A stretch of DNA of 64,000 nucleotides, taken from positions 422-64,421 of the IMG/VR virus record IMGVR_UViG_3300010351_000300, one strand, 5' to 3'. Positions within the stretch are counted from its first letter, which is position 1, and every line of letters begins with the position of its first letter. Positions 13,649-37,996 of this stretch are shown here, piece after piece. This DNA is from a virus. Its lineage: Duplodnaviria; Caudoviricetes. The translations under genes and the position numbers were made by a program. Below the pieces are notes generated by a model. That model was given only the letters and a program-made list of their open reading frames with translations, searched no databases and was not told the DNA's origin.

Positions 13649-16600
13649 ATGGGTAAGCGATTGGTGGCGAGTGCTGGTGTAGATGAGGTGCTTTCTGCTT
13701 TGGTGGAAGCATTCAATTCGTCTTCGAGTAACGACCGAGTAGTGTTTCTTTCCGAAGACGGGCAGTCTACCACTGAGCGCCCTGACCCGTTGGAGTACCC
13801 GAGGTTGTTGTCCGTTGCAGAAGTGGTGATTGGCCGAAAGGCATCGAGGACAAATCACCGATTGGTTCTCGTTCATGCTACAGGGCAGGGTCAGCTTCCG
13901 GCAGGGTGGACTGTGGAGTATAAGCCTATTCCCCGCCTGAAGCCCCTGACGGAGCGCGTGGATGTCACAGGTATGCCAACAACTGCGGATGAGGTTGACG
14001 CACTGCTTGTGACTGAACGCAAGTTGTGGGATGATGCACATGCTTCTGATGAAGCTATTCCCGCAGCTCAGTATGCCCCGGCAGTTGAATATCTTGTTAT
14101 GTTGAAAGATGGTTTGGATCTGGTTGCTCGTATGAAAGAGCGCGATCCACAGGATATTCTTCTCAAGACGTTAGAAGCGGGCAATGCGTTGTGGTGGAAG
14201 CAGTATCAAGCCGCTAGGTTTCAGTCTGTAGGTATTGACGAGACCTTCCGAGTCAAGCCTGAAACACAACAGCGTTTTCTACGGGACTTGAAGGCAAACT
14301 CCGATGCGAATACGCGGGATCTCTATCAGCGTTTGCGTGCAAGACAGGCCAAAGATCCCGAGGGTGCTGCCAGTATCTGGGCAGAAATGGCTGACGAAAT
14401 GCTGGCGAAGCATCCCGATTTAGCATCCATAAAAGTGGCGGAGCGCGTGGATGTCAAGGACATTCCCACGTACTCGGTGATGTCTTACGATGTCGTGGGG
14501 GACACGGAAGAGGAGTTGAAGCTCGTTGCTCGTTCCATCCGGCTCGTCAAGGCATTGACTATCAAGAGCGCCCCATCTCGTAAGGGGAATGTTTTCGTTC
14601 TTCCAGTCGATGCTCATATCCCTACGGGGTCGGCCGATCCCGCGCAGGAGGGTTTCGACCTGATCCAGAACGCGATTCAGAAGGCCGGGGTGGAAGAGAG
14701 TCATTCACGGGTACAGTCTACTTTGACGGAGGACGAATCTACAAAGTTCATCAACTCCGATCTACAATGGTTGGTTGGTCCGGATCAAGATATGACTTGG
14801 GCGCAAGCAAAGAAGTGGGTTCAGAGTTTAGGGGAAGGCTGGCGAATGCCTACCCTTATTGAGCTTAAAGGGTTGTGGGAAGCAAATCTACCGATCAAAG
14901 GTAGGGGTGCCTTTTCGGCGGCGTATGTGTGGTCACAGGATAAAGGTATTGGTTCAGCCAAGCGTTTCAACTTCAGTGCTGGGGAGTATGAGATGACACC
15001 TCTCGATTTCCCTTACGGAACTCGGGCTATGGCTGTTCGTGAAGCAGATACCACACCAGCCAACGAAAGTCAACGGGTACACCCCGTGCAGGAAGGTCAC
15101 CGTCGTCTTCAAGATGCTATCGTTCAAGCCAAGAGACAAGCTGCGGATCGTCAAGCTGTGCGGTATGTGTTCGCTACCGCTTATGGTTATGCTGTATGGG
15201 ATTCTCAACCCCCCTCGGGACAGAGATACTATGCTGTTCAACCTGATGGCACAGTGAGTAAGTCTTTGGTAGCGGGACAGGTCACGGAGGGTGTACCCAG
15301 CAAGAGGACAATTCCCGTCCGCACCTACCTTGGCCGTATCGATTGGAATGGGCAGATGTGGTCTGCAGCGGTTGTGCGTCAAGTCTTAGAGGCTGTGCAG
15401 GGTGAACTTCAGGCTGTCTTTGGGAAGTACACATGGTATCTGGATGGAGATACAGGTGACTACTCCATCATGGCAAAGAGTCTGGATACCAAAGACTTGT
15501 GGGCTGACGGCCACGGGCGTACCCCGAAACAGGCCATTCTCGACTGCAATGCTACGCGGACCATCTTCCAGAAGAACGGGTGGCTTCCCAGTAATGGGAT
15601 GATGACGGATGAGTCTCGTGATCATCCTGTGGTGGAAATCTCTCTTAGAGAAGACCTTGATGTAGCAAATACGATTCTCCAACAGCTTGGTGGGCGGAAG
15701 TTCATAGCGATGACTGGTGCTAAGGATTTAATGGGTGGTCCTGATTTCTTGGCCTTTCGTGTGGGTGCAAACCCAAAGCGGGTCAATAAAGTCCGGATTA
15801 CACTTAATGCTCATGACTACTATGATGTAGAGTTTTTCCATCTGCGCAATATGAAAGCTACTCTACTCTCCCGTGTGGAGGATGTTTCCGTTGACATGCT
15901 TCGTGATGTGTTTACACAAAATACCGGGTTGTATACCTCGTTGGGAACTATGGGTCGGACCCCTGAAACAGAAGGGGTATGTCGTCATAGCGGAACGATT
16001 GCCACGGAAGGAGTATGCCAACCCCTTAGTGAAGACCTAGATGTGGCGAACACGATTCTCCAACAGCTTGGTGGGCGGAAGTTCATAGCGATGACTGGTG
16101 CTAAGGATTTAATGGGTGGTCCTGATTTCTTGGCCTTTCGTGTGGGTGCAAACCCAAAGCGGGTCAATAAAGTCCGGATTACACTTAATGCTCATGACTA
16201 CTATGATGTAGAGTTTTTCCATCTGCGCAATATGAAAGCTACTCTACTCTCCCGTGTGGAGGATGTTTCCGTTGACATGCTTCGTGATGTGTTTACACAA
16301 AATACCGGGTTGTATACCTCGTTGGGAACTATGGGTCGGACCCCTGAAACAGAAGGGGTATGGCATGGCCTACATTACACCCTCCGCTTCCCGCAGGTCG
16401 AGGGAAGATACATCAAGGGTACTAGAATCGAGTCGTGTGAGTTTGAGGTTGTAGTGCAGTGTGGCAGTGAGGCTCAAGCTAGAGAATTCTTCCATACTCT
16501 TCAAGCTAAGTTGCAGGAGGATGAGAGTTTGAGTCAGCGTTGGGGACTTGGGTACGGTTGGATTCGTGGCAATGATGCTGTGTCGGTGTATGGGAAGATG

Positions 16601-17443
16601 GATACTCAGGACGAAGCCGCAGAGTTTGATTTTGAGAGCGGGGACTTGGGCGGTCTCTATACTGCTGCTGAAGAATTGGTCGAGCAGATGTTAGTAGCCG
16701 TGCTTGGTGCGGATTGGGAGAAGAGTTCGGAAGATGACGAAGATTTGGAAGAGTCAGTTTCTCCGACACAGCAGGCCCTTTCCGTAGGGTTGAAGGGTTG
16801 GGTTAAGGACTACATCCTTGCCCGGCGTGCTGGGAACATCGCACTGGCAAGGAGTATCAAGGCCAATCTCGACCGTGAGATTAAGAAGCAGGGGTTGGAT
16901 GCGCATGAAGTGTATTTCGTGTTCGGGGATCCGGACGATCCGAAAAACGATGTAGTCGTGGAAGCGAACCCGCGCCTCGATTTGCGTACTCCCCCTGTGA
17001 GTCGTCCCGATCCTGTAATATCGGCTGTAGAGGTTTGGTACGACCCACACACCAGATCGTGGATCGTGCAGGACAATGACGCAGAGGGCAATCAGATTGG
17101 GGATGCACGGTACTACGGCGATAAACCATCCGCGCTTCGTGACCAGCAGTCTGCTCGTAAGCAGTATGGGTTAGTAAAATCCGTGCAGATGGCGGAGGGG
17201 TCGGCTTTGCCATATGTGATTGAAGATGATGCTAGTCAGAAAATCGCGCACTATGTGGCTGGGGACTTTCACTGGCAGGTTGATGGTGGAGAAGTGATCG
17301 TGTCTCGAAACACTAGTGGGGGCATTATGTCTATTAACCACTATGCATACAAGGATTTTGATACCGCTGCTAATGCAGCATGGAAAATGGCCACCCTACA
17401 GGCACGGACCACTGAAGCAAGTGATTCTTCTGTGCGGGACTAG
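13649..17443 (+). CDS. 1264-aa mosaic multi-module protein (putative head-cargo polyprotein)
   Basis: About 10 unrelated 65-135 aa modules separated by xxE|S/G/D/A linkers. Contains an Lcl/DUF1566-like module and an internal duplication. Confidence 0.8.
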   Translation: MGKRLVASAGVDEVLSALVEAFNSSSSNDRVVFLSEDGQSTTERPDPLEYPRLLSVAEVVIGRKASRTNHRLVLVHATGQGQLPAGWTVEYKPIPRLKPLTERVDVTGMPTTADEVDALLVTERKLWDDAHASDEAIPAAQYAPAVEYLVMLKDGLDLVARMKERDPQDILLKTLEAGNALWWKQYQAARFQSVGIDETFRVKPETQQRFLRDLKANSDANTRDLYQRLRARQAKDPEGAASIWAEMADEMLAKHPDLASIKVAERVDVKDIPTYSVMSYDVVGDTEEELKLVARSIRLVKALTIKSAPSRKGNVFVLPVDAHIPTGSADPAQEGFDLIQNAIQKAGVEESHSRVQSTLTEDESTKFINSDLQWLVGPDQDMTWAQAKKWVQSLGEGWRMPTLIELKGLWEANLPIKGRGAFSAAYVWSQDKGIGSAKRFNFSAGEYEMTPLDFPYGTRAMAVREADTTPANESQRVHPVQEGHRRLQDAIVQAKRQAADRQAVRYVFATAYGYAVWDSQPPSGQRYYAVQPDGTVSKSLVAGQVTEGVPSKRTIPVRTYLGRIDWNGQMWSAAVVRQVLEAVQGELQAVFGKYTWYLDGDTGDYSIMAKSLDTKDLWADGHGRTPKQAILDCNATRTIFQKNGWLPSNGMMTDESRDHPVVEISLREDLDVANTILQQLGGRKFIAMTGAKDLMGGPDFLAFRVGANPKRVNKVRITLNAHDYYDVEFFHLRNMKATLLSRVEDVSVDMLRDVFTQNTGLYTSLGTMGRTPETEGVCRHSGTIATEGVCQPLSEDLDVANTILQQLGGRKFIAMTGAKDLMGGPDFLAFRVGANPKRVNKVRITLNAHDYYDVEFFHLRNMKATLLSRVEDVSVDMLRDVFTQNTGLYTSLGTMGRTPETEGVWHGLHYTLRFPQVEGRYIKGTRIESCEFEVVVQCGSEAQAREFFHTLQAKLQEDESLSQRWGLGYGWIRGNDAVSVYGKMDTQDEAAEFDFESGDLGGLYTAAEELVEQMLVAVLGADWEKSSEDDEDLEESVSPTQQALSVGLKGWVKDYILARRAGNIALARSIKANLDREIKKQGLDAHEVYFVFGDPDDPKNDVVVEANPRLDLRTPPVSRPDPVISAVEVWYDPHTRSWIVQDNDAEGNQIGDARYYGDKPSALRDQQSARKQYGLVKSVQMAEGSALPYVIEDDASQKIAHYVAGDFHWQVDGGEVIVSRNTSGGIMSINHYAYKDFDTAANAAWKMATLQARTTEASDSSVRD
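14732..15043 (+). other. Lcl/DUF1566-like C-type-lectin-fold module within the 1264-aa ORF
   Basis: LQW..GPD..MTWAQAK.W...LG.GWRMPT..EL..L...YVWS...A..FNF..G...RAMAVR. Confidence 0.75.
15671..16362. repeat. two identical 311-bp direct repeats (15671-15981 and 16052-16362), period 381 bp, in frame
   Basis: Base-by-base identity from ACGATTCTCC to GAAGGGGTATG. Encodes the duplicated ILQQLGGRKFIAMTGAK...TGLYTSL module. Confidence 0.97.
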
Positions 17444-23398: not shown

Positions 23399-25285
23399 AT
23401 GCCGGGGTTGTTTGGATATTTGCAGCGTGTATTCGGTAACGGAGCCTCAGATAAACCCAAGCCACTATCTACGCGTCCTGTGGGCCATTCCGGGGGTTTG
23501 ACACCGGAGCAGAAGTTTATCCGTACTGACCCCGAAAGCCGAATCAATCTAGTTGCTAATCATGGGTTGCTTTCTCAGTTGTTCTTCGCTGCAACGGATC
23601 TCGCAGCTTCGCGCCGCATGCGGTATATCGAGTACGATCAGATGGAAGAGAATGTCATTATCGCATCCTTCCTTTCTCTGATTACGGAAGATGCATATCA
23701 GCGTGACCCAGATAGCGAAAAGAGTGTCTGGATCGACCCTGACTTCCAGTACGCCAAAGAATTGGAAGATCTGTTCGAGAAGCTGGATGTCGAGAATCGT
23801 GGGCATGGCTGGATGTATAACTGTGCTAAGTTTGGGGATTTCTTCCTCAAGCCTTCGTTAGCAACCGGGCTTGGTGTGGTGGCCGCACGAGATGACTTGC
23901 ACCCTACGGATGTTTGGCGTATTGATGTACAGGGCCAGTTGCTGGCTTTTGCGTACACGGATCGGTTGTTTGGCTCAGGGAATGCCAGTGCCTTCAACTC
24001 TGTTGGGGGTGTGGCAGGCGATGTGAGGATTGTTGTCCCGGATCAGATGATACACTTCGTGTTCAACTATCGTCCGACATTCGAGCGGTTCTCACTATCC
24101 ATTCCGGCTAACTTCTACGATGAGCTTGAGGACGAGGATGGCGATTTGGTCCAGAGTACCGAAAGCCGGAGTCTTGTCATGGAAGCCCAGCAGCGGTTGA
24201 TCGAACGGAAGCAGAATTTGCGGAAGCGGCTGGTAGAGGCGTTGCAGCAGGCGGCTGAAGTCTCGGGTGAAATGACTATGATGGGGGATCCGGTAGACGA
24301 CCATGTCTCACTGGCTATTCAGGTCTCAGGTCGATATGGTACCTCAGCGTTGTACGAAGTTCGGAAAGACTACAAGATTCTGACGCTTATGGAACAAGCT
24401 CTGGCGTTGGGTAGGTTGGCTCGTTCCGGTGTGGCTAGGATTTTCTCGGTCAATACCGTAGATGCAACCCCCGAAGAGCGTGCTCGGTTGCTGCGTGAAC
24501 TGGAAGACAAGCTCACGAAACGACAGGCATTTGATGCCACTACCCAGCTTTATCAGTCTGAATACTCACCGTTGAACTACTTGGATGACATCTTCCTACC
24601 CACGACTGGTGGGCGTGGGGATGTCACGGTTCAACAGCTTGGTGGGGATTTGAACATCAAGGATGCTGTGGACATCGATTATTTCCTGAGTAAGGTCTTT
24701 TCTGGTCTGCGTGTTCCCAAGGCGTACCTTGGATTTGAGGAGATGTTGCCGGGGTCTCTCGGGGCGGCTACTCCTTTGATTCAGCTCGACGTGCGGTATG
24801 CCCGGACGGTGAAGAAGCTCCAGCGGGCGTTTATGGAAGGGATCAAGGACTTGTGTTCCCTGCACTTGAAGTACAAGCTCGGGGTGAATATACCAGCGAA
24901 AGACATCCCGTTGAATATGTCTACCATTTCTGGTGCCGAAGAAATGGCTCGTATGGATATAGTCAAGAGCAGGATTGAAACCGCACAAGCGATTGCGGAT
25001 TTCGTGACGGCACATGGTGGAGACGGCTCGAAGGCTGCGCGGGAGTTGTTTGACGATATCGTTGCTCGGGCTTTGCCGAGTCTGAACACGGATGGTATCT
25101 TCGATAGCCCCAACCCGAATCCAGAAGCTGCTACAGCAGATGAACTGAATCTTCCTAAGCCCGAGGATCGTACACCCACCGCTTCTTCTACACCTGCGGA
25201 GCCTTCTCCTCCTGAAGTCGAGCCAGAGTTAACAGGGACACTGACCCCGGAGGAGGAGCCGACTGGTGGAGAGGGTGAAGTCTAG
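23399..25285 (+). CDS. portal protein (T4 gp20-like)
   Basis: RYIEYDQME, YNCAKFGDFF, ARIFSVN, DIDYF..KVFSGLRVPKAYLG, QLDVRYARTVKKLQ. Confidence 0.9.
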   Translation: MPGLFGYLQRVFGNGASDKPKPLSTRPVGHSGGLTPEQKFIRTDPESRINLVANHGLLSQLFFAATDLAASRRMRYIEYDQMEENVIIASFLSLITEDAYQRDPDSEKSVWIDPDFQYAKELEDLFEKLDVENRGHGWMYNCAKFGDFFLKPSLATGLGVVAARDDLHPTDVWRIDVQGQLLAFAYTDRLFGSGNASAFNSVGGVAGDVRIVVPDQMIHFVFNYRPTFERFSLSIPANFYDELEDEDGDLVQSTESRSLVMEAQQRLIERKQNLRKRLVEALQQAAEVSGEMTMMGDPVDDHVSLAIQVSGRYGTSALYEVRKDYKILTLMEQALALGRLARSGVARIFSVNTVDATPEERARLLRELEDKLTKRQAFDATTQLYQSEYSPLNYLDDIFLPTTGGRGDVTVQQLGGDLNIKDAVDIDYFLSKVFSGLRVPKAYLGFEEMLPGSLGAATPLIQLDVRYARTVKKLQRAFMEGIKDLCSLHLKYKLGVNIPAKDIPLNMSTISGAEEMARMDIVKSRIETAQAIADFVTAHGGDGSKAARELFDDIVARALPSLNTDGIFDSPNPNPEAATADELNLPKPEDRTPTASSTPAEPSPPEVEPELTGTLTPEEEPTGGEGEV

Positions 25286-25821: not shown

Positions 25822-25908
25822 TCACTCGCTAGTGCGTATCTGAAACATCATATCCAAATACAGCATTCCCAAGATATACTCAAGGTAGAGGATAAGGAGG
25901 TTTCGCCA

Positions 25909-28155: not shown

Positions 28156-31100
28156 ATGACTCGTCAGTTTGGAAGTTTGGTACAGGTACTCCGTGAGGAC
28201 GTTGAAGACGAGGTTCTTGACCCTTCTGCGGAGGATTTTGACGGGGCTGTCGAGGCAGAAGTAGACGATTTTGGCGGTGAGGACTCCACCCCGCAGCCGG
28301 TTGACAAGGTGACGGTTCTTACGTCTAGCAGCCTGTGTGACAAGGGTTTCTACATGGCTGTCCCACTCCCGGATGACGATGTTGCCAAGCAGGTGAAGGA
28401 AGAGGGGGCTTGGTACGCGAATGCTCTGGCAGTTGCGCTCAACCAGTTCCTCGTAGATAACGGGTACGCGGATGTGACTACACAGGCATTGGAGAGCGAA
28501 GACGACTCTACACTGCGTGTTTCCGTGCTCTGGGCCGGTGGGCAGGAAAGCGAACCCGATGCGGTACTGGCGTTGATGCAGGAGTTCATCAGTGGGCTGC
28601 ACGATCACCCGGTGCTGTCGATCATCGGGCAGACAGACCCCGAGCCGCAGGTACACGGTGCTGAATATCAGGTGGAAATCGAATTCCCGGAGCCTATTGA
28701 TGATGCTGCTGTGGCTAAGTACATGGATCGTTTGGCGCAAGCTCTTGGGGCGTGGGATGAGAAGAACGGGGTCGAAGACCAGAACTTGGCACTTCGTTAC
28801 GTAAATCACGGTGAGTACACACTGGTTGTTGCAGTTGATTCTCCGATGGAGATTCCGGAAGATGTCTTTGTCGATCAGGTGCCGGAAGACCAGAAGAAGG
28901 ATGAGACGGTTGGCGAAGAAGAGACACAGGAAGCCGAAGATGAAGTAGAGTCTGACACCGAAGAGGATGCTGCTGATCAGGAAGCCGAAGCTGGAGTAGA
29001 CGGTGAAGCCGAAGATGCTGAGAAGGAAGAAGATGAGGACGAAGAGAAGAAAAAGAAGACTGAATCCCGTCATCCCCTGAAGGAGGGCTACCGCGATGTT
29101 CTGGAGCAGATTCTTCGTAGGGTAGCCCATGATGTGGTATATGACGCTGCGTCTACCTATCAGCAAAGAGGTGGTGGCGCAGCCGCAGGAGGGCTTCCAG
29201 CTCGGTATTATCTATACATGAAGCCTGCAACGGCGACGGAATACGGTGATTTGCAGTTCTTCCGTGGTTGGGGAGATGAGCCTGATCCACGGTTAGAGGG
29301 TTGGGATCTTGTGACGGGTGAGAGTCTGATCATCGACTACCATGGATCTCTAGGTGAGGAAGTGGTCAGGAAGTGGTTGGAGGACAAGGCTCAAGTTAGA
29401 AGGCTTCCTCTGATTGCACAGAATGCTGAGAAGGAAGAAGATGAGGACGAAGAGAAGAAAAAGAAGACTGAATCCCGTCAGCCGGTGAAGGAAATGGCTA
29501 CAGGAACAGCCGTGCTTATGGCAGAAATCAGGAAGATGTTTCAGGCGATTCTTGCGAAACTTCCAGATCGCTGCAAGATCGACGCCGAGATTGGTCAGTA
29601 CCGGGGACAAGGTGATCTGTATCTTTCCGGCGTGGGAAACGACAGCGCAGACATAGACTTCAAGTGGACTATTTCGAGTGGTGTGGCAACGCAAAAGGTT
29701 CGTCCCGACTGGGGTGATGAACAGCCGATAGTCTTTTGTTTGGGATTTATTGATTCACCGCAAGTAAAGGCAACTGTGAAGGAAGAGTGGAACATTCCGT
29801 TTGATAAGGATATGCTTGATTACGCCGATCCTATTGCACAGTGGATTATGGCGTTTGCGGGGCTGAAGCCAAACACAGAATCCAAGAAGCGCACCAACGA
29901 GGGTCGGAAACGATTCAATACTCAGACAGGTATAGGTAAGTCGAAGCATGTTCTCAACTTTCATGATGGTGTGAAGACACATAAAGATGGTAGTGACTTC
30001 TATGATATCCGAATATTCTCCAACGCGAAGGATCTTGCTGCGTTTGTAGCTGATCTGAAATCGAAGGGGTATGTTGAAGAGAGCATTGAATCCAAGAAGC
30101 CTGCCTCGAAGGCCCGTCAGCACCATCTTGTTCAGGAGAAGACTATGGCCCTCACCCCTGAGACTGCCAAGGCTGCGGCTTGGGATGCAGGCAATGCCAG
30201 CATGCGCAAGGCTGGGCGTACCTCGTGGAACGAAGAAGATATGATGGCTGCGGATCAGGAAATGGCCCGATTGATGCGTAAGGTTGAGCCTGATAATCCT
30301 ACATGGTGGACTGACGAGGAGAGAAACGCTGGGGTGGCTACTGAGTCCCGTAGTAGGCTTCGTGAGTCGATGTTTGACTACTCACCCGACCCCATCCATT
30401 TCTCCGAAGACATGCCATATCTAGACAATGTGTTGGAGATGTGGAATGGTGCTCCAGAAGAGAACGGGGATTTGGAGTGGTCCGGCCCCTACCGTGATTT
30501 CTTGACGATGAACGATGACTCTACAGACGGTATTCCTCCGGAATCCTGCTACATGAAGCCCGGTGAGGAGCGAGTCGTTGGGGGTGGGGCGTATGCCACA
30601 TTCACCCTCAAACTCTCCAAGAATCAATGGGAAGAGGGAAAGCGGGGGTCTCGGAAGCGCCCTTTTCGCGAGTCTACGGAGCCTGAAGGCTCGAAATACA
30701 TCACTGTCAGCTACGATACAGTCACCCCGGAATCCGCTGAAGAGGGGGATGTTGCTGAAAGTGGCTGGGAGGATGAAGAGGGCGTAGACATGACGCCGGA
30801 TGAGATCGATGTCGAGGACGGGATCTCCGCTGTGGACAAGGCTGTGGACTATCTGCAGAAGAACGGCCCTATGGAGCCGTCGTCTTCGCAGTTCACCCCA
30901 CATACTTGGTACACACACTACGAGGGGCAAGATCCGAGTGATGGTTCGGAAACCAGCTACTCCTACCATCTGAATGGCTTTACTCCAGAGGAAGAGCAGG
31001 AGATTTACAGGCGTATGACGAGCAAGAACGAATCTCGGTTGCGCGATTTCAAGTCTGTGGCAGGGTGTTCGTATGTCGAATCAGGGCAGGCGATACCACG

Positions 31101-33435
31101 ACGCGAGTTTGACCTTGGTGGGGTGGAGCGATTTGGTAAGTATGTCAGTATAGTCAAGGACGGCCCAGCTTATCTTGTAAAGCGTCATCCTGACCATCCG
31201 GCTGGTAGAGCTATTGCTGGGGTATCTTCTCTGACACGGGCTCGTGCAGTTGCAAAGAGGCTGGAGCGGGGGGATACTGTTGGGGATATTGAGAAGGACT
31301 TGAAACAGGGTTTCATATCCGAGGGACAGTGGTCAGGGCAGGCGATACCACGACGCGAGTTTGACCTTGGTGGGGTGGAGCGATTTGGTAAGTATGTCAG
31401 TATAGTCAAGGACGGCCCAGCTTATCTTGTAAAGCGTCATCCTGACCATCCGGCTGGTAGAGCTATTGCTGGGGTATCTTCTCTGACACGGGCTCGTGCA
31501 GTTGCAAAGAGGCTGGAGCGGGGGGATACTGTTGGGGATATTGAGAAGGACTTGAAACAGGGTTTCATATCCGAGGGACAGTGGTCAGGGAAGGTCGATA
31601 CCGACTGGACACCCCCCGAGGGCTTCTTCAATCAGAGTGCAGAGAAGATCGCACGCGGGTTGGAGTCGGCTTCAACTGGATTGCAGCAAGCAATGTCTCG
31701 ACTGAATTTCTACATCAACCGGGCGGGAGAGAACCTGTCTGATGATGATAAGAAGCGGTTGGAGAAGGCGAAGGACGAGCTACATCATCTTTACGACCAG
31801 CGTGAGTCTGTGCAGAAGGAAAGCATCGTCCAAACCGACACTTCCGAAGAGCTGCGAAAGGTGACTCTCGCGTGCGAAGCTTCGGGCTTGAAGTACGCTG
31901 TGACAGGGAAGCAAGTCGTGATCTCTGGAACACACGCACAAGTCGAAGAATCGTTGAAGGCTGCTGGTGTTGATGTTGTGTGTGATGAAGCCAAGAAAGG
32001 GCCTCGTCCGCAGAAGCCGAAGGATCCCAGCCGCCGTCCGAAGGGACGTGGCAAGCCTCGGGAAATTCATGTACCGAAGCCTCGTCCTCGTCCCGAAGTC
32101 GATGAGTCCATTCAAGTGAAGCCGTTTAAGGCGGACTACTTCATCGATTTGCTGTCTACTGATGTGGATGAACTGACCAAAGCATCCTCAATCCTCCGTC
32201 GCAAGGGGTTGAAGGTCGGTCGGCCTCAGCGGGCAGTGGATTCATGGTTCGTGACCGTCTCCGGAGTTGCCGCAACCAGTGGAGCAGAGGCTAGGCAGTA
32301 CATTGCATCCTTGCTGAATCTATCCCGGTTAGCAGTGACAATGAGTGAGTCACATTCTAGTGAACCGGAGTCTATTGCAGCCTCGCTGGATCAGGCTACT
32401 CAGGAAACAATCGAACACGCACGTAGGTGTGTGGCCATTATGAACCAGCTTCCTGAAGGGACAACGATTCACAGCGGACGTAAGACATGGACTAAGACTA
32501 CCGTTGCAGGAGATATCTTCTGGACGGATGGGAAGCGTTGGGTGTCTAACGTAGTTATGGAGGTTGGTGCAAAGATTGCCTCTCAGATCACCGGAATTGA
32601 TATGTTCAATCCACCTCCGGTAGGGACGGTGCTATCTGTTGGGAAACACCAGACCACTGAGCGTGTTGACTCGGAATCTTCGGAGCAGCCTATCCGATAC
32701 GACCCAAATACGAATCGTCATAATGGGCAAAAACTTGTTCGGGGTGACTTGATTCGAGATACTGAGGGTAAGGTCTATATTCTGGACCGTGATCGCGGTT
32801 ATTTCCTGAATCTGGATGTTGCCGTGCAGAATCCAGAAGGAATGTGGCGTCCATCATCTCAAGGCAAGACCTTCAGTGTTGACCCCACAAATAAGGATGA
32901 GTACCACGGTGATCTCTTCCTTATGGGGAAGAATGTCTTCGAGTCCAAGTCCGTGGTTGTTGAGCAAGCACCCCCAGAGGACAGCGAAACAATGACTGTC
33001 AGTATCCCTACAGAGAAACTGGTAGACAGTCTGTTGCCAGTACCTCGTGGTTTTTTCCGTATGGGGACAGGGTTCGAACATGAAGACGGAGAGGGGTCGA
33101 TTGATGGTACCTCTGCATTGGGCCTTCAACTTGAAATGTACCCCGACTGGATTCTTTCCAGTGCTGAAGTGACGCCGGAGAATACAACGCTGACGCTCTA
33201 CAAGCAGGGTGTTCTGGATTACATGCAGGATTCCGGTCAGTGGGCTGCTGATGCTACTCTTGATTTTGCATCCGAGGAACTGAACGATCAGGATGCGATA
33301 GTGGCGTTCTTGCGGAATACATTGCACGAAGAGCTAGTGCAGCGTGTAGACCTGTTCGATTTCTACACACCGTCACCTTCCGATGATATGTCGGAACTTG
33401 ATGATGAAGAGATGAACGATGGGGATGCGGAGTAA
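28156..33435 (+). CDS. 1759-aa mosaic multi-module protein (putative head-cargo polyprotein)
   Basis: Acidic N-terminal region, then about 15 small modules bounded by xxE|S/G linkers. Includes a DUF3175-like module and two internal DNA repeats. Confidence 0.82.
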   Translation: MTRQFGSLVQVLREDVEDEVLDPSAEDFDGAVEAEVDDFGGEDSTPQPVDKVTVLTSSSLCDKGFYMAVPLPDDDVAKQVKEEGAWYANALAVALNQFLVDNGYADVTTQALESEDDSTLRVSVLWAGGQESEPDAVLALMQEFISGLHDHPVLSIIGQTDPEPQVHGAEYQVEIEFPEPIDDAAVAKYMDRLAQALGAWDEKNGVEDQNLALRYVNHGEYTLVVAVDSPMEIPEDVFVDQVPEDQKKDETVGEEETQEAEDEVESDTEEDAADQEAEAGVDGEAEDAEKEEDEDEEKKKKTESRHPLKEGYRDVLEQILRRVAHDVVYDAASTYQQRGGGAAAGGLPARYYLYMKPATATEYGDLQFFRGWGDEPDPRLEGWDLVTGESLIIDYHGSLGEEVVRKWLEDKAQVRRLPLIAQNAEKEEDEDEEKKKKTESRQPVKEMATGTAVLMAEIRKMFQAILAKLPDRCKIDAEIGQYRGQGDLYLSGVGNDSADIDFKWTISSGVATQKVRPDWGDEQPIVFCLGFIDSPQVKATVKEEWNIPFDKDMLDYADPIAQWIMAFAGLKPNTESKKRTNEGRKRFNTQTGIGKSKHVLNFHDGVKTHKDGSDFYDIRIFSNAKDLAAFVADLKSKGYVEESIESKKPASKARQHHLVQEKTMALTPETAKAAAWDAGNASMRKAGRTSWNEEDMMAADQEMARLMRKVEPDNPTWWTDEERNAGVATESRSRLRESMFDYSPDPIHFSEDMPYLDNVLEMWNGAPEENGDLEWSGPYRDFLTMNDDSTDGIPPESCYMKPGEERVVGGGAYATFTLKLSKNQWEEGKRGSRKRPFRESTEPEGSKYITVSYDTVTPESAEEGDVAESGWEDEEGVDMTPDEIDVEDGISAVDKAVDYLQKNGPMEPSSSQFTPHTWYTHYEGQDPSDGSETSYSYHLNGFTPEEEQEIYRRMTSKNESRLRDFKSVAGCSYVESGQAIPRREFDLGGVERFGKYVSIVKDGPAYLVKRHPDHPAGRAIAGVSSLTRARAVAKRLERGDTVGDIEKDLKQGFISEGQWSGQAIPRREFDLGGVERFGKYVSIVKDGPAYLVKRHPDHPAGRAIAGVSSLTRARAVAKRLERGDTVGDIEKDLKQGFISEGQWSGKVDTDWTPPEGFFNQSAEKIARGLESASTGLQQAMSRLNFYINRAGENLSDDDKKRLEKAKDELHHLYDQRESVQKESIVQTDTSEELRKVTLACEASGLKYAVTGKQVVISGTHAQVEESLKAAGVDVVCDEAKKGPRPQKPKDPSRRPKGRGKPREIHVPKPRPRPEVDESIQVKPFKADYFIDLLSTDVDELTKASSILRRKGLKVGRPQRAVDSWFVTVSGVAATSGAEARQYIASLLNLSRLAVTMSESHSSEPESIAASLDQATQETIEHARRCVAIMNQLPEGTTIHSGRKTWTKTTVAGDIFWTDGKRWVSNVVMEVGAKIASQITGIDMFNPPPVGTVLSVGKHQTTERVDSESSEQPIRYDPNTNRHNGQKLVRGDLIRDTEGKVYILDRDRGYFLNLDVAVQNPEGMWRPSSQGKTFSVDPTNKDEYHGDLFLMGKNVFESKSVVVEQAPPEDSETMTVSIPTEKLVDSLLPVPRGFFRMGTGFEHEDGEGSIDGTSALGLQLEMYPDWILSSAEVTPENTTLTLYKQGVLDYMQDSGQWAADATLDFASEELNDQDAIVAFLRNTLHEELVQRVDLFDFYTPSPSDDMSELDDEEMNDGDAE
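29015..29480. repeat. 58-bp direct repeats (29015-29072 and 29423-29480) flanking one protein module
   Basis: Identical ATGCTGAGAAGGAAGAAGATGAGGACGAAGAGAAGAAAAAGAAGACTGAATCCCGTCA, encoding the linker AEKEEDEDEEKKKKTESR. Period 408 bp, in frame. Confidence 0.97.
31081..31590. repeat. perfect 252-bp tandem duplication with TCAGGG at all three junctions
   Basis: 31081-31332 equals 31333-31584. TCAGGG at 31081, 31333 and 31585. The 84-codon module is duplicated in frame. Confidence 0.97.
31576..31806 (+). other. DUF3175-like module within the 1759-aa ORF
   Basis: WS..V...W.PPEG.F...A..IA..L...AMSRLNFYINRAGENL....RLEKAKDEL. Confidence 0.75.
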
Positions 33436-35186: not shown

Positions 35187-36539
35187 ATGAAGAAACTGTT
35201 GTCTGAGACTCTGAACAATCCCTCGATGACGATTGTCGAGTCTAACAGCACCAATCTCCCGAAGGGTGTTCTCCTTCGCGTATCCGGACAGGTGGGGCTG
35301 TATGACCAGCCCACGCTGAACGGTCGCTCTTATCCGAAGCAGCTTTGGGTGGAGCGTGTTATCGGTTCCCCGGATATCGCGAAGAAGATGCAGGATCGTA
35401 ATCTGTTCGGTGAGGCAGACCATCCGCAAGAGCTGGAAGTCTCCATCCACCGTATCTCACACGCGATCTCGAAGATTTGGCTTGATGAGAGTACCAATCG
35501 TGTGATGGGTACTTTTGATATTCTGGATACACCCGCCGGGCGCATTGTCAAGACGCTTTACGATTACGGTGCGAAGGTCGGGGTCTCCAGTCGTGGATCA
35601 GGGGAAATCCACGAGAACAACGGTATCTCAGAAGTACGGGCGGATACCTACGAGTTCATTACATTCGACTTCGTGACCGACCCTGCCAATGTTGGTAGCT
35701 ATCCTACACCGGTTATGGAGTCGCTGGCGCGTCGTGATCTTGCAAAGTACAAGGAAGACATGCCCTTCTATGAGGGTTTGTTCCACAAGCTCGGTATTGA
35801 TCTCTCGACGCTGCAAGAAAAGGCTCCTTCAGAGACGACAGAGGGGACTCGGGAATCTTTGTGGGAGTCGCGTTTGAGTGAAATGGCCGAGACTTTGAAG
35901 ACGATGAATGCTTCGCTCTCCTCGCGTTCGAGTGAGATTCAGGCAAAGGATATTCAAATCATAGGGTTGCAGGAAACAGTTGCATCTTTGCGGGAGCGTT
36001 TACTTCTGGCTGACTCTCTGTTGGAGTCCAAGAGTGAACCTACTTCTGCTTTTGATGGGGAAGTCGTGCGTTCTCGACTCAACGCTATTGAGGAACGGGT
36101 TCGTCAACAGGCTTCTCAGGGTGCGGTTCAAGAATCCAAGGTTCGCAAGGAACTCGTACAGGCCCAGCAGGAGAGTCAGGGTTTGCGTGAGCAAGTCAGC
36201 AATCAGCGTGCAACTATTCTTCGGTTGCAGAAGCAACAGGAGATGATGCGGGAATTGCGGAAGCGGTTCTTTGCCGAGCGCAAGACACGGTTGGCGGCTG
36301 AACAGCGGGCGAAGGTGGTTCCAGTGACAGAAGCAGCGAAGCCGAAGCCAACGGCCCAGCCGAAAGTAACGGTTGCTCCTGTTGCGTCACCTCGACCTGT
36401 GTCTCGTGTAATTGAGCGCAAGCCTGTACGTGTCGAGTCAGAAGAGAGTCAAGAGGCTATGGAGTCCCGTTTGATCGGGATGTTCAATGCCGCAAGTGCG
36501 GGTGCCGGTCTTGATGACGGCACTGTACCCGAAGAATAA
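35187..36539 (+). CDS. prohead protease (T4 gp21-like) fused to coiled-coil scaffold
   Basis: LNGRSYP, FGEADHP, SHAI, DILDTPAG, GVSSRGSG, ITFDFVTDPA, followed by a coiled coil rich in LxE sites. Confidence 0.92.
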   Translation: MKKLLSETLNNPSMTIVESNSTNLPKGVLLRVSGQVGLYDQPTLNGRSYPKQLWVERVIGSPDIAKKMQDRNLFGEADHPQELEVSIHRISHAISKIWLDESTNRVMGTFDILDTPAGRIVKTLYDYGAKVGVSSRGSGEIHENNGISEVRADTYEFITFDFVTDPANVGSYPTPVMESLARRDLAKYKEDMPFYEGLFHKLGIDLSTLQEKAPSETTEGTRESLWESRLSEMAETLKTMNASLSSRSSEIQAKDIQIIGLQETVASLRERLLLADSLLESKSEPTSAFDGEVVRSRLNAIEERVRQQASQGAVQESKVRKELVQAQQESQGLREQVSNQRATILRLQKQQEMMRELRKRFFAERKTRLAAEQRAKVVPVTEAAKPKPTAQPKVTVAPVASPRPVSRVIERKPVRVESEESQEAMESRLIGMFNAASAGAGLDDGTVPEE

Positions 36540-36553
36540 TCTTCGGGAGAAGG

Positions 36554-37996
36554 GTGAGTCAAGTGGGTGATATTCGTCAGATCATTGAGGAAAGCCGTAG
36601 GCAGCGGAAGGAAGCCTTTGAGATCGTCAAGGCCAATCCGCGTCTTCGTCCTTACCTTGAGGCCATAAAGAAGGCCCGCCCCAAGATTTCTGACAAGATG
36701 CTTGAGGATACGGCTATCTGCATGGAGAACACTCGTCAGTGGATGCGTTCCTTGAACGAGACTACCAAGTCTTCGTCCATCGGTAACTTCATTCACCACG
36801 GGTTTGAGCTGATCGCAGCCGTCATGCCTAACCTGCTCGCGCATGAGTACGTCTCGGTTCAGCCGATGACTCGGCGCGTGGGGGAACTGTTCTTCCTCGA
36901 CTACAAGTACGGCACCACCAAGGGGAACATCACTGCGGGAACTACGCTGTTTGGCTGGCAGCAGGCTGGTCAGGGCGGGGAGCAGTATTACTCCTCCCCG
37001 AAGGTTCGGAATGAGCTGGTTGGTACTGGTAATGGCTCGACCAAGCATTACGAGTACACACTCAACACCATTCCGGTTGATTCGCTGGTTTCGATCACCG
37101 ACGGCGTAGAAATCTTCACGGATGCTACCAAGTCCGGTACGTTGACTGGTGATAAGACCGGTACCGGCTCCATCGACTACGACACGGGTGAAGTTGTCCT
37201 CGACTTCCATTCCAATGTCGTGAACCTGACCCCGATCTACGCCAACTACGATCTGAACTTCGAGAACAACCCGGACAACATTCCGGAAGTTAACCTCGAA
37301 GTCTCGGGTGTTACGGTGACGGCAGAGGAGAAGAAGCTCCGTGCTATCTACACCCTTGACGCTGCTTACGACATGGAGCAGAGTCATGGTCGCTCCGTGG
37401 ATGCCGACCTGTCCAACGCGCTGTCCTCAACGGTTCGTGCAGAAATCGACGCGAAGATTTTCGCGGAACTTTATGCAGGTGCCCACGAGGCCATCACGAC
37501 TTGGAACAGGAACACCCCGCTAGGTGTGAACTGGAGGGATCACAAGTTCAGCCTGATCTCCACGATCAAGGCCGCATCGAACCAGATCCTGAAGAACACC
37601 CGTAGGGTTGAGGGTAACTTCATCGTTGCCGGTGTTGATGTCTGCACCGTTATCGAAGACCTTGAGGGTCGGTTCCGCCGGACGGCTGCAAAGGCCATGC
37701 CGGGTCCGCACCTGATCGGTACTCTCGATGACATGCCAGTCGTCAAGAACCCGTACTTCAGTGACAAGACCTTCCTTGTCGGCTACAAGGGTGATTCCAT
37801 GGTAGACACAGGCTACATCTACGCTCCGTACATGCCGCTGTATGCTACCCCGAAGGTCACTCTGGATGACTTCAAGACCCGTCAGGGTATGGGTACGCGG
37901 TTTGCAACGTATCTTGTCAACCGTAGGATGTACATCCGTGGAGCCATCTCGGGTGACAACGTCCCAACCCCGTACACGATCACTGAGCAGACCTGA
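36554..37996 (+). CDS. major capsid protein (T4 gp23-like HK97 fold)
   Basis: SVQPM....G.LFFLDYKY, V.A..KKLRA.YT.DAAYD....HG, EID, GYKG....DTGYIYAPYMPL, F..RQGMGTRFA. Confidence 0.95.
   Translation: MSQVGDIRQIIEESRRQRKEAFEIVKANPRLRPYLEAIKKARPKISDKMLEDTAICMENTRQWMRSLNETTKSSSIGNFIHHGFELIAAVMPNLLAHEYVSVQPMTRRVGELFFLDYKYGTTKGNITAGTTLFGWQQAGQGGEQYYSSPKVRNELVGTGNGSTKHYEYTLNTIPVDSLVSITDGVEIFTDATKSGTLTGDKTGTGSIDYDTGEVVLDFHSNVVNLTPIYANYDLNFENNPDNIPEVNLEVSGVTVTAEEKKLRAIYTLDAAYDMEQSHGRSVDADLSNALSSTVRAEIDAKIFAELYAGAHEAITTWNRNTPLGVNWRDHKFSLISTIKAASNQILKNTRRVEGNFIVAGVDVCTVIEDLEGRFRRTAAKAMPGPHLIGTLDDMPVVKNPYFSDKTFLVGYKGDSMVDTGYIYAPYMPLYATPKVTLDDFKTRQGMGTRFATYLVNRRMYIRGAISGDNVPTPYTITEQT

What the first reader, a model, noticed from the sequence alone, without database searches (positions are those of the whole stretch)
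28156..33435. Candidate new system: protease-processed, expandable head-cargo polyprotein (1759 aa)
Seen in sequence: after an acidic N-terminal region, the ORF is a chain of about 15 unrelated 55-160 aa modules. Nearly every boundary carries x-x-E followed by S/G/M/A/K, often doubled into a short basic linker: KTE|SRHPLKE|G, KTE|SRQPVKE|M, NTE|SKKRTNE|G, VEE|SIE|SKK..LVQE|K, ATE|SRSRLRE|S, WEE|G..PFRE|S, KNE|S..YVE|S, ISE|G, QRE|SVQKE|S, VDE|S, MSE|S, VFE|S. The same pattern fills the phage's own protease-scaffold (LLSE|T, VME|S, LWE|S, LLE|S, VQE|S, VTE|A, AME|S) and the capsid leader (IIE|ES, LNE|T). Established: the T4 gp21 prohead protease cuts after Glu in I/L-X-E and processes scaffold, capsid and internal proteins. 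Inference: this ORF is packaged through a core-like N-terminus and cut during maturation into many small proteins that are injected with the DNA, acting as a cassette of early effectors such as anti-defence factors. Several modules resemble stand-alone small phage proteins of unknown function.
Basis: partly seen in the sequence, partly recalled or inferred. Interest (0 to 1): 0.92.

Follow-up and report, generated by a model that had tools for sequence, protein, structure and literature searches.

The report
Phage head-cargo polyprotein with protease-site linkers
An uncultured wastewater phage with a T4-type head strings about 15 unrelated small protein modules into one 1759-residue protein, joined by short peptides that fit the cutting rule of its own capsid-maturation protease; related phages swap modules exactly at these joints, so the chain is probably loaded into the capsid and cut into many separate internal proteins, although no cutting or packaging has been measured.

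Summary
ORF 28156-33435 (1759 aa) lies between the T4-type portal and a gp21-like protease-scaffold plus gp23-like capsid gene. It has a disordered leader, an acidic conserved N-domain and 14 further modules. These are mutually unrelated apart from one exact 252-nt duplication.

Twenty-three Glu|Ser/Gly/Lys/Met sites mark the boundaries, often paired around a 5-19 aa basic spacer. Thirteen boundaries defined without using the motif were tested: 11 of 13 lie within 3 aa of an E|S/G site, against 2.8 expected. These boundaries come from indels against a 2235-aa and a 2574-aa syntenic relative, contig joints in four other metagenomes, the termini of stand-alone homologues, and an AlphaFold model.

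At least five module configurations exist in sludge, digester and landfill samples. ES is enriched twofold here and in the scaffold, but not in other acidic proteins. Module-proximal sites have a hydrophobic P3 (10 of 13), as in the T4 L/I-x-E rule. One module's homologue in T4-like contigs carries a leader like the T4 capsid-targeting sequence.

Cleavage, packaging, injection and anti-defence function remain inference. I class it as a new variant of known kinds: T4 internal proteins and Aravind-type polyvalent proteins. The scan has flagged the same class on other DNA before. I found no published description.

The parts
28156..28197 (+). N-terminal leader, aa 1-14 (MTRQFGSLVQVLRE|D). It is CTS-like and ends in L-R-E.
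   Evidence: Sequence. The L-R-E is conserved in the 36%-identical ortholog P0006. AF2 predicts aa 1-50 as disordered. Compare the T4 CTS MKTYQEFIAE (PMC8442874).
28198..29064 (+). Conserved acidic N-domain, aa 15-303 (pI 4.05, net charge -67). It ends in an acidic tract followed by KKKKTE303|S.
   Evidence: 90% identical in P0002 and 36% in P0006. AF2 gives an alpha/beta fold for aa 51-240 at pLDDT about 75. Charge values.
29065..29493 (+). Spacer SRHPLKE310|G, then module A (aa 311-439), then spacer SRQPVKE446|M. The unit is bracketed by a 58-70 nt linker repeat.
   Evidence: Repeat D3. The unit is absent from P0002 and from run X9. It is present at 67% identity inside P0006, at residues 1157-1274.
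29494..29901 (+). Module B (aa 447-575), then spacer SKKRTNE582|G.
   Evidence: The stand-alone 124-aa homologue P0099 has its Met1 aligned to M447 and ends in ...YTE|SRKIK. Run X6 replaces modules B and C with 586 nt of other sequence.
29902..30138 (+). Module C (aa 583-642, basic), then spacer SIE|SKK...LVQE661|K.
   Evidence: Absent from P0002 and X9. Homologues include P0105, P0112, P0012, P0155 and P0004. P0105 begins MKTFKQIMTE|GKKRY and lies next to a T4 gp14-type neck gene.
30139..30366 (+). Module D (aa 662-730), then spacer SRSRLRE737|S.
   Evidence: Shared with P0002. P0002 and X9 insert a 224-aa module exactly at E737|S738.
30367..30672 (+). Module F (aa 738-827), then spacer GKRGSRKRPFRE839|S.
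   Evidence: Shared with P0002. P0002, X9 and X6 insert modules at E839|S840.
30673..31080 (+). Module I (aa 840-959, pI 4.05, net charge -24), then a short piece SRLRDFKSVAGCSYVE975|S.
   Evidence: Module I accounts for 135 of the best 150 of the 1389 hits in the exhaustive search, and many of these are stand-alone proteins of 110-150 aa. AF2 gives pLDDT 92.7 with aa 848-959 ordered. It is flanked by E|S in P0002, P0005/P0157, P0031 and P0010.
31081..31584 (+). Module J in two copies (aa 976-1059 and 1060-1143), an exact 252-nt tandem duplication. Each copy carries ISE|GQW.
   Evidence: J is absent from X4, X6, X9 and P0002, where I is joined to M by E|SRLRE|K, by E|SRLREVQKE|, or by another module. 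The copy number has no independent support.
31585..31821 (+). Module M, a DUF3175-like module (aa 1144-1217), then spacer SVQKE1222|S.
   Evidence: Pfam PF11373 at E 4.6e-12. Similar small hypothetical genes occur in jumbo phages BCSR5, phiRSL1 and PhiXhv.
31822..32349 (+). Module N2 (aa 1223-1317, basic with a Pro/Lys/Arg tail, ending EVDE1317|S) and module Q (aa 1318-1398, ending TMSE1398|S).
   Evidence: P0002, X5, X6 and X9 insert about 205 aa exactly at E1317|S1318.
32350..32943 (+). Module R1 (aa 1399-1507, ending VDSE1507|S) and module R2 (aa 1508-1596, ending NVFE1596|S).
   Evidence: P0159 joins the end of Q directly to R2. P0160 carries R1 alone, fused to a homologue of the downstream gene.
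32944..33435 (+). Conserved C-terminal module S (aa 1597-1759) with an acidic tail, then the stop codon.
   Evidence: 91% identical in P0002 and about 43% in P0006. Both relatives add further modules after it, in P0002 after ...MGE|S.
35187..36539 (+). Prohead protease (gp21/S77-like, aa 1 to about 178) fused to a scaffold-like coiled-coil region rich in hydrophobic-x-E|S sites.
   Evidence: Pfam S77 at 2e-10 and phrog_207 at 2e-46. GEADH79P and GVS134S135RG align with T4 gp21. E7, E18-S19, E178-S179, E227 and E280 are invariant in the 46%-identical ortholog. ES count is 11 against 4.4 expected.
36554..37996 (+). gp23-type major capsid protein with candidate leader sites IIEE|S (aa 13-14) and SLNE69|T.
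   Evidence: Pfam Gp23 at 6e-56. In the alignment with T4 gp23, E69 is conserved and lies 17 aa upstream of the position of the T4 LTE|A site.
23399..25285 (+). T4-type portal protein.
   Evidence: Pfam Portal_T4 at 1e-36. In T4 the gene order is portal, gp67, gp68, gp21, gp22, gp23, so this polyprotein occupies the gp67/68 position.
13649..17443 (+). Second polyprotein (P0158, 1264 aa) with the same linker grammar: VEE|SHSRVQSTLTE|D, ANE|SQRVHPVQE|G, DE|SRDHPVVE|. Its leader is ...VLSALVE|A.
   Evidence: A TATACT box lies 55 nt upstream, as for the portal and protease genes. A related phage (L010) carries modules of both window polyproteins in the corresponding genes.

Best explanation
The ORF is a modular head-cargo polyprotein of a T4-type phage.

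Shown by comparison: it is a chain of independently folding, mutually unrelated modules. Their boundaries carry Glu|Ser/Gly sites, and modules are gained, lost, duplicated and moved between phages, and between two polyprotein genes, exactly at these sites.

Inferred:
- The gene is expressed late with the head genes.
- The protein enters the prohead core through its leader and its conserved acidic N-domain, and perhaps through the conserved C-terminal module.
- The phage's gp21-like serine protease cuts it after Glu at each linker during maturation.
- The short basic spacers between paired sites are released as peptides.
- The folded 7-18 kDa modules stay in the head like T4 internal proteins.

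Inferred more weakly: the modules leave with the DNA and act at the start of infection. The linker thus has two roles. It is a processing site, and at the DNA level it is a short shared sequence at which modules recombine in frame.
For: Context:
- The gene lies between a T4-type portal and an S77 protease-scaffold plus a gp23-type capsid gene.
- The slot is syntenic in two relatives, L001 and L003, and corresponds to the T4 gp67/gp68 core-protein position.

Protease:
- The catalytic His and Ser motifs are conserved with T4 gp21.
- T4 gp21 cuts after L/I-x-E, phiKZ gp175 after S/A-x-E, and SPN3US gp245 after A-x-E with a preference for Ser at P1' (PMC9026906; PMC10052503).

Motif statistics:
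- ES is enriched 2.1x here and 2.5x in the scaffold, against 1.18x in the rest of the proteome.
- P3 is hydrophobic at 10 of 13 module-proximal sites, against 22% of all Glu (p = 3e-5).
- Candidate sites in the protease-scaffold keep their Glu in a 46%-identical ortholog.

Boundaries:
- 11 of 13 motif-independent boundaries lie within 3 aa of E[SG], against 2.8 expected.
- Every P0001/P0002 indel falls at a linker.
- Contigs from four other studies show module deletions, replacements and insertions at aa 295/423, 425/659, 578/668, 738, 839/840, 960-964/1142 and 1317/1318.
- Met1 of the stand-alone P0099 aligns to M447, the P1' residue.
- The ordered core of module I is aa 848-959, just inside E839|S and E959|S.
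- Module I is flanked by E|S in five different polyprotein contexts, but not where it is a free or C-terminal domain.

Link to T4 internal proteins:
- Leaders ending in hydrophobic-x-E occur on both window polyproteins and on relatives.
- The module C homologue P0105 starts MKTFKQIMTE|G, compared with the T4 CTS MKTYQEFIAE, and lies next to a T4-type neck gene.

Generality: E|SVNE|-linked polyproteins (P0155, P0012) and others (P0005/P0157, P0031) use the same grammar.
Against: There is no protein-level data of any kind: no virion proteome, no neo-N-termini and no expression data were laid on the gene.

P3 is not uniform. The first site of paired linkers is usually x-T-E|S, and three module-proximal sites have T, Q or D at P3. 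The protease's specificity therefore has to be broader than T4's, or not all sites are cut.

Glu makes up 10% of the protein, so loose site definitions match easily. Only the ES and E[SG] tests are stringent.

The N-domain has no detectable similarity to T4 core proteins or to any known fold.

Most modules are acidic, unlike the basic T4 IPs.

The second polyprotein lies outside the head gene block.

P0159 keeps E|S-flanked modules in a small gene among non-structural genes. The flanks can therefore travel with a module without a polyprotein context.
Confidence: 0.6

Rival explanations
1. The protein is an uncut 'beads on a string' virion or internal protein. It is packaged or used full length, as the N4 virion RNA polymerase is. 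The linkers are only flexible connectors and in-frame recombination joints.
For: The mosaic structure and DNA-level linker repeats show that the linkers act as recombination joints, which by itself would conserve them. Polyvalent proteins can be delivered unprocessed (PMC5512222). P3 is heterogeneous.
Against: A connector or recombination joint needs neither a strictly kept Glu followed by Ser/Gly nor a hydrophobic P3. Linkers that differ in DNA and peptide sequence still end in E|. The same grammar marks the phage's scaffold and capsid leader, where T4-type proteases are known to cut. Paired sites around a 5-19 aa basic spacer look like excision units.
Confidence: 0.17
2. The protein is a disposable prohead core or scaffold component. 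It is cut by the protease, but the pieces are expelled or degraded to make room for DNA, as with T4 gp22, gp67 and gp68. The modules would then be fillers or size determinants rather than delivered effectors.
For: The gene sits in the gp67/68 slot between portal and protease. It has a very acidic N-domain and acidic tracts like the T4 gp67 tail. T4 core proteins are cut at many sites and mostly leave the head (PMC9026906).
Against: The modules are folded domains of 7-18 kDa (module I has pLDDT 92.7). They have stand-alone homologues in arrays of small non-structural phage genes and in T4-like contigs with a CTS-like leader. Rapid turnover of module content between near-identical phages fits an arms-race cargo better than a structural filler. 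T4 keeps proteins of this size (the IPs) in the head.
Confidence: 0.13
3. The protein is not a head protein at all. It is a cytoplasmic polyprotein or multi-domain protein, cut by another protease or not cut, whose location near head genes is incidental.
For: No direct evidence of packaging. The second polyprotein lies outside the head block. The contig is only part of the genome (64.4 kb), so other proteases may exist.
Against: The position between portal and protease is conserved in three phages down to 36% identity. The gene has no promoter-like box of its own and follows the TATACT box at 25875, which it shares in kind with the portal and protease genes. The leader and linker grammar is shared with the scaffold and capsid.
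Confidence: 0.07
4. The long ORF is an artefact: mis-assembled or falsely fused small genes.
For: The exact 252-nt tandem duplication could be an assembly product.
Against: Independent assemblies from JGI, ENA and Logan give uninterrupted ORFs of 2235 and 2574 aa in the same slot. Contigs from four other studies bridge the linkers in frame.
Confidence: 0.02

Closest known systems
Phage T4 internal proteins IPI, IPII, IPIII and Alt: capsid-targeting sequence plus gp21 processing (PMC9026906, PMC3012670, PMC8442874)
   Same: Both have a T4-type head with a gp21-family protease that cuts after Glu. Both have a short N-terminal leader ending in hydrophobic-x-E. The cargo is diverse, fast-evolving and non-homologous. 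Proteins of about 8-20 kDa would stay in the head. One module family has a member with a leader very like the T4 CTS.
   Different: T4 IPs are separate small genes, each with its own CTS, and are cut once. Here about 15 modules share one leader and N-domain and would be released by some 23 internal cuts. Most modules are acidic rather than basic. There is no sequence similarity to any T4 IP.
Polyvalent proteins of phages and conjugative elements (Iyer, Burroughs, Anand, de Souza, Aravind 2017, PMC5512222)
   Same: Many disparate domains (2-15) sit in one polypeptide. The gene is encoded next to portal and packaging genes. Domains are extensively shuffled. The proteins are proposed to be packaged and delivered with the DNA, and are compared to RNA-virus polyproteins.
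   Different: Those proteins are defined by recognisable enzymatic and LPD domains, and by embedded peptidases (zincin MPTase; a C-terminal assemblin-like peptidase) proposed to process them. Here no such domain is detected. Processing would be in trans by the separate prohead protease at explicit repeated linker sites, which that paper does not mention (the word 'linker' has 0 occurrences).
Multi-site processing of head, inner-body and ejection proteins in phiKZ, 201phi2-1 and SPN3US (PMC10052503, PMC9026906)
   Same: A gp21-related protease cuts after x-x-Glu at several sites in one substrate, with a Ser preference at P1' in SPN3US. The cargo is ejected into the cell.
   Different: In those phages the multiple cuts lie in long N-terminal propeptides that are discarded, and each substrate yields one mature protein. 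There is no homology and no module mosaic.
T4 prohead core proteins gp22, gp67 and gp68
   Same: The genomic position is between portal and protease, the proteins have acidic tracts, and gp21 cuts them at many sites.
   Different: The fragments of the core proteins are short peptides that mostly leave the head. Here the pieces are folded domains with free-standing homologues. There is no sequence similarity.

Membership tests
T4-type internal proteins (CTS + gp21 site) | N-terminal leader of about 10-20 aa ending in an L/I-x-E cleavage motif | tested here: met
   The leader is MTRQFGSLVQVLRE14|D. L-R-E is invariant in the 36%-identical ortholog, and the leader lies in a region predicted to be disordered. 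This is a sequence-level match only; targeting function was not tested.
T4-type internal proteins (CTS + gp21 site) | Encoded by a phage with a gp21 (MEROPS S77) prohead protease | tested here: met
   Pfam Peptidase_S77 at 2e-10 and phrog_207 at 2e-46. The His and Ser motifs align with T4 gp21.
T4-type internal proteins (CTS + gp21 site) | Small basic protein cut once, present in the mature head and injected | tested here: not met
   The protein has 1759 aa and about 23 candidate sites, and most modules are acidic. Presence in the head and injection cannot be tested with these tools.
Polyvalent proteins (Iyer et al. 2017) | Many unrelated domains in one polypeptide, encoded with portal and packaging genes | tested here: met
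   There are 15 modules, unrelated by blastp apart from the duplicate, and the gene lies three genes downstream of the portal.
Polyvalent proteins (Iyer et al. 2017) | Hallmark domains: MPTase, ArdC-N, ART, MuF, helicases, LPDs or an embedded peptidase | tested here: not met
   Pfam finds only DUF3175. PHROGs, NCBIfam and PDB sequence searches find nothing.
Substrates of a gp21-family prohead protease | Cleavage after Glu in a short x-x-E motif, shown by neo-N-termini | not testable with these tools
   Only the motif could be tested. Enrichment of ES, a hydrophobic P3 and coincidence with domain boundaries all hold.
T4 prohead core proteins (gp67/gp68/gp22) | Sequence or fold similarity to the core proteins | tested here: inconclusive
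   blastp of the N-region against T4 gp67, gp68 and gp22 gave no hit below E = 4.9. The N-domain model is of middling confidence and gives only generic ferredoxin-like matches at Z of 6.1 or less. The similarity in gene position holds.

The most novel reading that the evidence does not exclude
Phages with T4-type heads use a general, evolvable 'cargo bus'. Proteins that other phages express as separate early genes are strung behind one capsid-targeting domain, loaded into the prohead as a polyprotein, and freed by the maturation protease. A ready-made set of counter-defence or takeover proteins then enters with the DNA. The protease-site linker doubles as the in-frame recombination joint, which lets near-identical phages in the same habitats carry different cargo sets, with modules moving between two or more polyprotein genes.
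Probability: 0.35. Interest if true: 0.85.

Novelty: new variant of a known kind. Interest (0 to 1): 0.75.

Why it matters
If the chain is packaged and cut, it is a polyprotein strategy in a tailed phage. One targeting signal would load a dozen or more unrelated proteins, and the maturation protease would double as a releasing enzyme. The cargo set would be rewritten by recombination at the cleavage-site linkers.

That would explain how large uncultured phages deliver many proteins before any gene is transcribed. It would give a sequence rule for finding injected proteins, which are candidate anti-defence factors, directly in metagenomes. It would also supply natural boundaries for testing each module.

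The present-day variation adds to this. At least five module configurations occur among close relatives in sludge, digester and landfill samples from 2016 to 2025, which points to ongoing selection on cargo content.

Tried and rejected
- Word-indexed homologue searches over the whole protein found almost nothing: 3 long and 1 short protein. The exhaustive search found 1389 hits, so the earlier blanks were a sensitivity problem and not evidence of absence.
- The N-domain profile found only the already known contig in metagenome contigs and nothing in viral contigs.
- ESM Atlas gave no usable hit for module I or the N-domain.
- Cluster look-up gave no informative names.
- NCBIfam, the PDB sequence search and PHROGs on modules and homologues gave nothing.
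- Foldseek against PDB gave nothing at E of 1e-3 or better for module I. The best VIA match is cyanophage Mic1 Gp72, a 'novel fold' of unknown function (Z 6.5, rmsd 3.7, 90 aligned), which gives no function.
- The N-domain model gave only generic alpha/beta matches.
- Complex prediction of the scaffold region against the N-domain gave no answer. This is evidence neither for nor against binding.
- tblastn of P0105 against cultured phages gave no match.
- PHROGs on the neighbours of P0148, the protein with 'RNP' linkers, did not identify its head protease.
- The exact alignment of the capsid leader site with the T4 gp23 LTE|A site failed. The window's SLNE|T lies 17 aa upstream of that position, so it remains a candidate site only.
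- The idea that linkers such as VKE|M (GTGAAGGAAATG) are fossil ribosome-binding sites plus start codons was considered and left open.
Full report
WHAT IS THERE

The window is almost all of a 64.4-kb metagenomic phage contig. ORF 28156-33435 (+) is an uninterrupted 1759-codon frame.

It lies in a T4-type head block. The order is:
- a Portal_T4 gene (23399-25285);
- four genes with no family match;
- the long ORF;
- three small genes;
- a Peptidase_S77/phrog_207 protease fused to a coiled-coil scaffold-like region (35187-36539);
- a Gp23-family capsid gene (36554-37996).

In T4 the order is portal, gp67, gp68, gp21, gp22, gp23, so the long ORF occupies the place of the small prohead core proteins. 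The capsid protein is at most 36% identical to any cultured phage, the best matches being Listeria phage LIS04 and Bacillus phage SP-15. Sequencing runs that hold the gene come from activated sludge, anaerobic digesters, landfill and wastewater, in 16 studies from 2016 to 2025.

THE OBSERVATION

Exact positions of the 23 boundary Glu residues are given.

The architecture is as follows:
- a leader (aa 1-14, ending L-R-E|D);
- an acidic N-domain (aa 15-303, net charge -67);
- modules A, B, C, D, F, I, J (two copies), M (DUF3175), N2, Q, R1, R2 and S, each 60-163 aa.

The modules are separated by single E|S sites or by paired sites that enclose a basic spacer of 5-19 aa, such as SRHPLKE, SRQPVKE, SKKRTNE, SRSRLRE and GKRGSRKRPFRE. 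They are mutually unrelated by blastp, except that J is an exact 252-nt tandem duplicate.

The enrichment figures are:

| Protein set | ES observed | ES expected |
|---|---|---|
| This ORF | 26 | 12.2 (p = 4e-4) |
| Protease-scaffold | 11 | 4.4 |
| Rest of the proteome | 86 | 73 |

Other acidic proteins of the contig are not enriched. Ser follows Glu 2.15 times more often than composition predicts in the two polyproteins plus the scaffold, against 1.16 times elsewhere.

ARE THE E| SITES REALLY DOMAIN BOUNDARIES?

I defined boundaries without using the motif, from five sources.

1. A 2235-aa protein (P0002) comes from a syntenic contig. It shares the N-domain (90% identity), the C-terminal 470 aa (91%) and modules B, D, F, I, M, N2 and Q. 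It lacks A, C and J, and it carries seven modules that the window lacks. Every indel breakpoint falls in a linker.

2. A 2574-aa protein (P0006) sits in the same slot of a more distant phage, with the N-domain 36% and the C-terminal part 43% identical. It carries module A at 67% identity and two of P0002's extra modules, but in a different order.

3. Contigs from four other studies were laid on the ORF. Their joints are:

| Position (aa) | Event | Runs |
|---|---|---|
| 295/423 | A deleted | X9 |
| 425/659 | B and C replaced by 586 nt | X6 |
| 578/668 | C replaced | X9 |
| about 738 | insertion | X9 |
| 839/840 | insertions | X6, X9 |
| 960-964/1142 | J absent or replaced | X4, X6, X9 |
| 1317/1318 | about 205 aa inserted | X5, X6, X9 |

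In the J-less forms, I is joined to M by E|SRLRE|K or by E|SRLREVQKE|. With the window, that makes at least five module configurations.

4. Stand-alone homologues. The 124-aa P0099 aligns Met1 to M447, which is the P1' residue of E446|M, and it ends ...YTE|SRKIK, inside the next spacer. Module I accounts for 135 of the best 150 of the 1389 hits of an exhaustive profile-free search. The free-standing members, 109-160 aa long, start at about aa 842-848 and end at about aa 955-962.

5. An AlphaFold model of module I, built with 44 sequences, has pLDDT 92.7 and an ordered core at aa 848-959, just inside E839|S and E959|S.

Of these 13 boundaries, 9 lie within 3 aa of an ES site (1.8 expected) and 11 within 3 aa of E[SG] (2.8 expected). 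At most 1 of 20,000 random placements did as well.

P0159 adds one more boundary. It joins the end of Q directly to R2, which splits R at E1507|S.

DOES THE GRAMMAR FIT THE PHAGE'S PROTEASE?

The protease aligns with T4 gp21 through GEADHP and GVSSRG, which are the catalytic His and Ser regions. Its N-terminal LLSE|T aligns with T4's LLIE|T, the 'LIE-9' site discussed in PMC9026906.

Published specificities are:
- T4 gp21 cuts after L/I-x-E.
- phiKZ gp175 cuts after S/A-x-E.
- SPN3US gp245 cuts after A-x-E, with a preference for Ser at P1'.

In the long ORF, the site next to each module has a hydrophobic P3 in 10 of 13 cases (L, V, V, L, F, Y, I, V, M, V), against 22% for all Glu (p = 3e-5). 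The first site of paired linkers is mostly x-T-E|S.

In the protease-scaffold, E7, E18-S19, E178-S179 (the end of the protease domain), E227 and E280 are invariant in a 46%-identical ortholog. The capsid leader has IIEE|S and SLNE69|T. E69 is conserved and lies 17 aa upstream of the position that aligns with the T4 gp23 LTE|A site, so it is a candidate site and not a homologous one.

LINK TO T4 INTERNAL PROTEINS

T4 IPs are diverse proteins that share only a roughly 10-aa capsid-targeting sequence, MKTYQEFIAE, which gp21 removes. Any protein fused to it is packaged (PMC3012670, PMC9026906, PMC8442874).

Leaders of the same shape occur on:
- the long ORF (…SLVQVLRE|D);
- P0006 (…LFLSTLRE|T);
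- the window's second polyprotein (…VLSALVE|A);
- P0031 (…SRMRLLE|S);
- P0157 (…LIDDLRE|G).

A 118-aa homologue of module C, P0105, starts MKTFKQIMTE|GKKRY and lies directly after a T4 gp14-type neck gene in three T4-like contigs. That is the closest tie between a module of this protein and a bona fide IP-like gene.

A WIDER PHENOMENON

The window has a second polyprotein (13649-17443, 1264 aa) with the same linkers. A TATACT box lies 55 nt upstream of it, like those before the portal, protease and 25909 genes.

In a related phage (L010), the corresponding genes carry a module of the second polyprotein together with modules I, B-end and C of the first. Modules therefore move between slots.

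Other lineages have polyproteins with very regular E|SVNE| linkers (P0155, 791 aa; P0012) or with E|SRRRPVQE| types (P0005/P0157).

Earlier notes of this scan describe the same class on other DNA (e1-5828135, e1-5339016, e1-5929542, e1-5689061, e1-5785372, e1-5899035). These are unchecked AI notes and I did not use them as evidence.

WHAT THE MODULES DO

This is unknown.
- The only family hit is DUF3175.
- Module I matches only uncharacterised small phage proteins in BFVD (TM 0.78 to a 101-aa protein of Pseudomonas phage PspYZU01). In the PDB it matches cyanophage Mic1 Gp72, a 'novel fold', at Z 6.5.
- In Pseudomonas phage vB_Pae-SS2019XI the module I homologue is one of 14 consecutive small hypothetical genes next to the primase, which is a typical accessory or early array.
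- Several modules are strongly acidic (I, F and S have pI about 4). This would suit DNA mimicry, but that is speculation.

MECHANISM AND RIVALS

The best-supported reading, with confidence 0.6 for 'packaged and cut by the prohead protease', has these steps:
- late co-expression with the head genes;
- entry into the prohead core through the leader and N-domain;
- cleavage after Glu at the linkers;
- loss of the basic spacer peptides;
- retention of the folded modules.

Delivery into the cell and a counter-defence role are weaker inferences, at about 0.35-0.4.

The rivals are:
- an uncut multi-domain protein whose linkers are only recombination joints (0.17);
- a disposable core protein whose pieces are expelled (0.13);
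- a non-virion protein (0.07);
- an artefact (0.02).

The strict Glu-Ser/Gly pair, the hydrophobic P3, the paired-site spacers and the shared grammar with the scaffold and capsid argue against a pure connector role. The folded modules with free-standing homologues, and the rapid turnover of cargo, argue against a pure filler role.

COMPARISON WITH THE KNOWN

The mechanism would be that of T4 IPs (CTS plus gp21), scaled to a polyprotein. The architecture is that of Aravind's polyvalent proteins. Those, however, are defined by recognisable domains and embedded peptidases (PMC5512222, section 8). None of these is present here, and that paper does not describe cleavage-site linkers.

Giant-phage head proteins are also cut at several x-x-E sites, but within discarded propeptides (PMC10052503). 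Four literature searches found no description of a prohead-protease-processed multi-module polyprotein. The library does not cover most subscription journals.

I class the finding as a new variant of known kinds.

LIMITS

- There is no protein-level or expression evidence.
- The copy number of module J rests on one assembly.
- The N-domain fold is only moderately confident.
- The site statistics depend on boundaries that I extracted by hand from alignments. The coordinates and ambiguity intervals are listed.

Noticed in passing
window 13649-17443: A second polyprotein (1264 aa) has the same E|S...E| linker grammar, a CTS-like leader and an internal duplicated module. A related phage (L010: 10001-13435 and 15432-17903) mixes modules of both window polyproteins in the corresponding genes.
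   Followed up: partly
window 19968-23336: The ribonucleotide reductase large subunit is interrupted by an intein with a LAGLIDADG homing endonuclease (Pfam LAGLIDADG_3 at 6e-21, plus Intein_splicing).
   Followed up: no
window 33419-34000; L001 7740-10739; L003 17731-20415: The 193-aa gene just downstream of the polyprotein has a weak SWIM-like hit and a hit to phrog_1722, 'tail protein'. In the two syntenic relatives the downstream gene is 999 and 894 aa long and contains an intein. In P0160 a homologue of it is fused behind module R1 of the polyprotein.
   Followed up: no
proteins P0148 (L011 10001-12988), P0016, P0026, P0053, P0008, P0086: In other lineages, proteins that carry the module I domain are punctuated by a different short motif: basic-x-N-P, as in RRNP|S, QRNP|S, SNP|Y, TRNP|E, KRNP|E. 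This may be a second lineage-specific linker or processing code. The head protease of that phage could not be identified.
   Followed up: partly
window 13594, 23352, 25875, 35134, 53467, 61036: TATACT boxes lie 15-55 nt upstream of the starts of morphogenesis genes and of the second polyprotein. The hexamer occurs 22 times on the + strand and 8 times on the - strand. It is a candidate late-promoter element.
   Followed up: partly
L006 7620-7976 (also L007, L008): The 118-aa protein P0105 lies directly after a T4 gp14-type neck gene. It starts MKTFKQIMTE|G, which is very close to the T4 capsid-targeting sequence MKTYQEFIAE, so it is a candidate internal protein of an uncultured T4-like phage.
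   Followed up: partly
window 29473-29496: The linker before module B reads ...GTG AAG GAA ATG (V-K-E|M). Its Met aligns with the start Met of the free-standing homologue P0099. This may be a fossil of a gene fusion: a purine-rich stretch followed by a start codon.
   Followed up: no
L017 10001-10636: P0159 (211 aa) carries the end of module Q joined to module R2, with the E|S flanks kept. It sits among small non-structural genes of a different element, with an exonuclease, DUF2201, DUF5131 and IS605-type transposases nearby.
   Followed up: no
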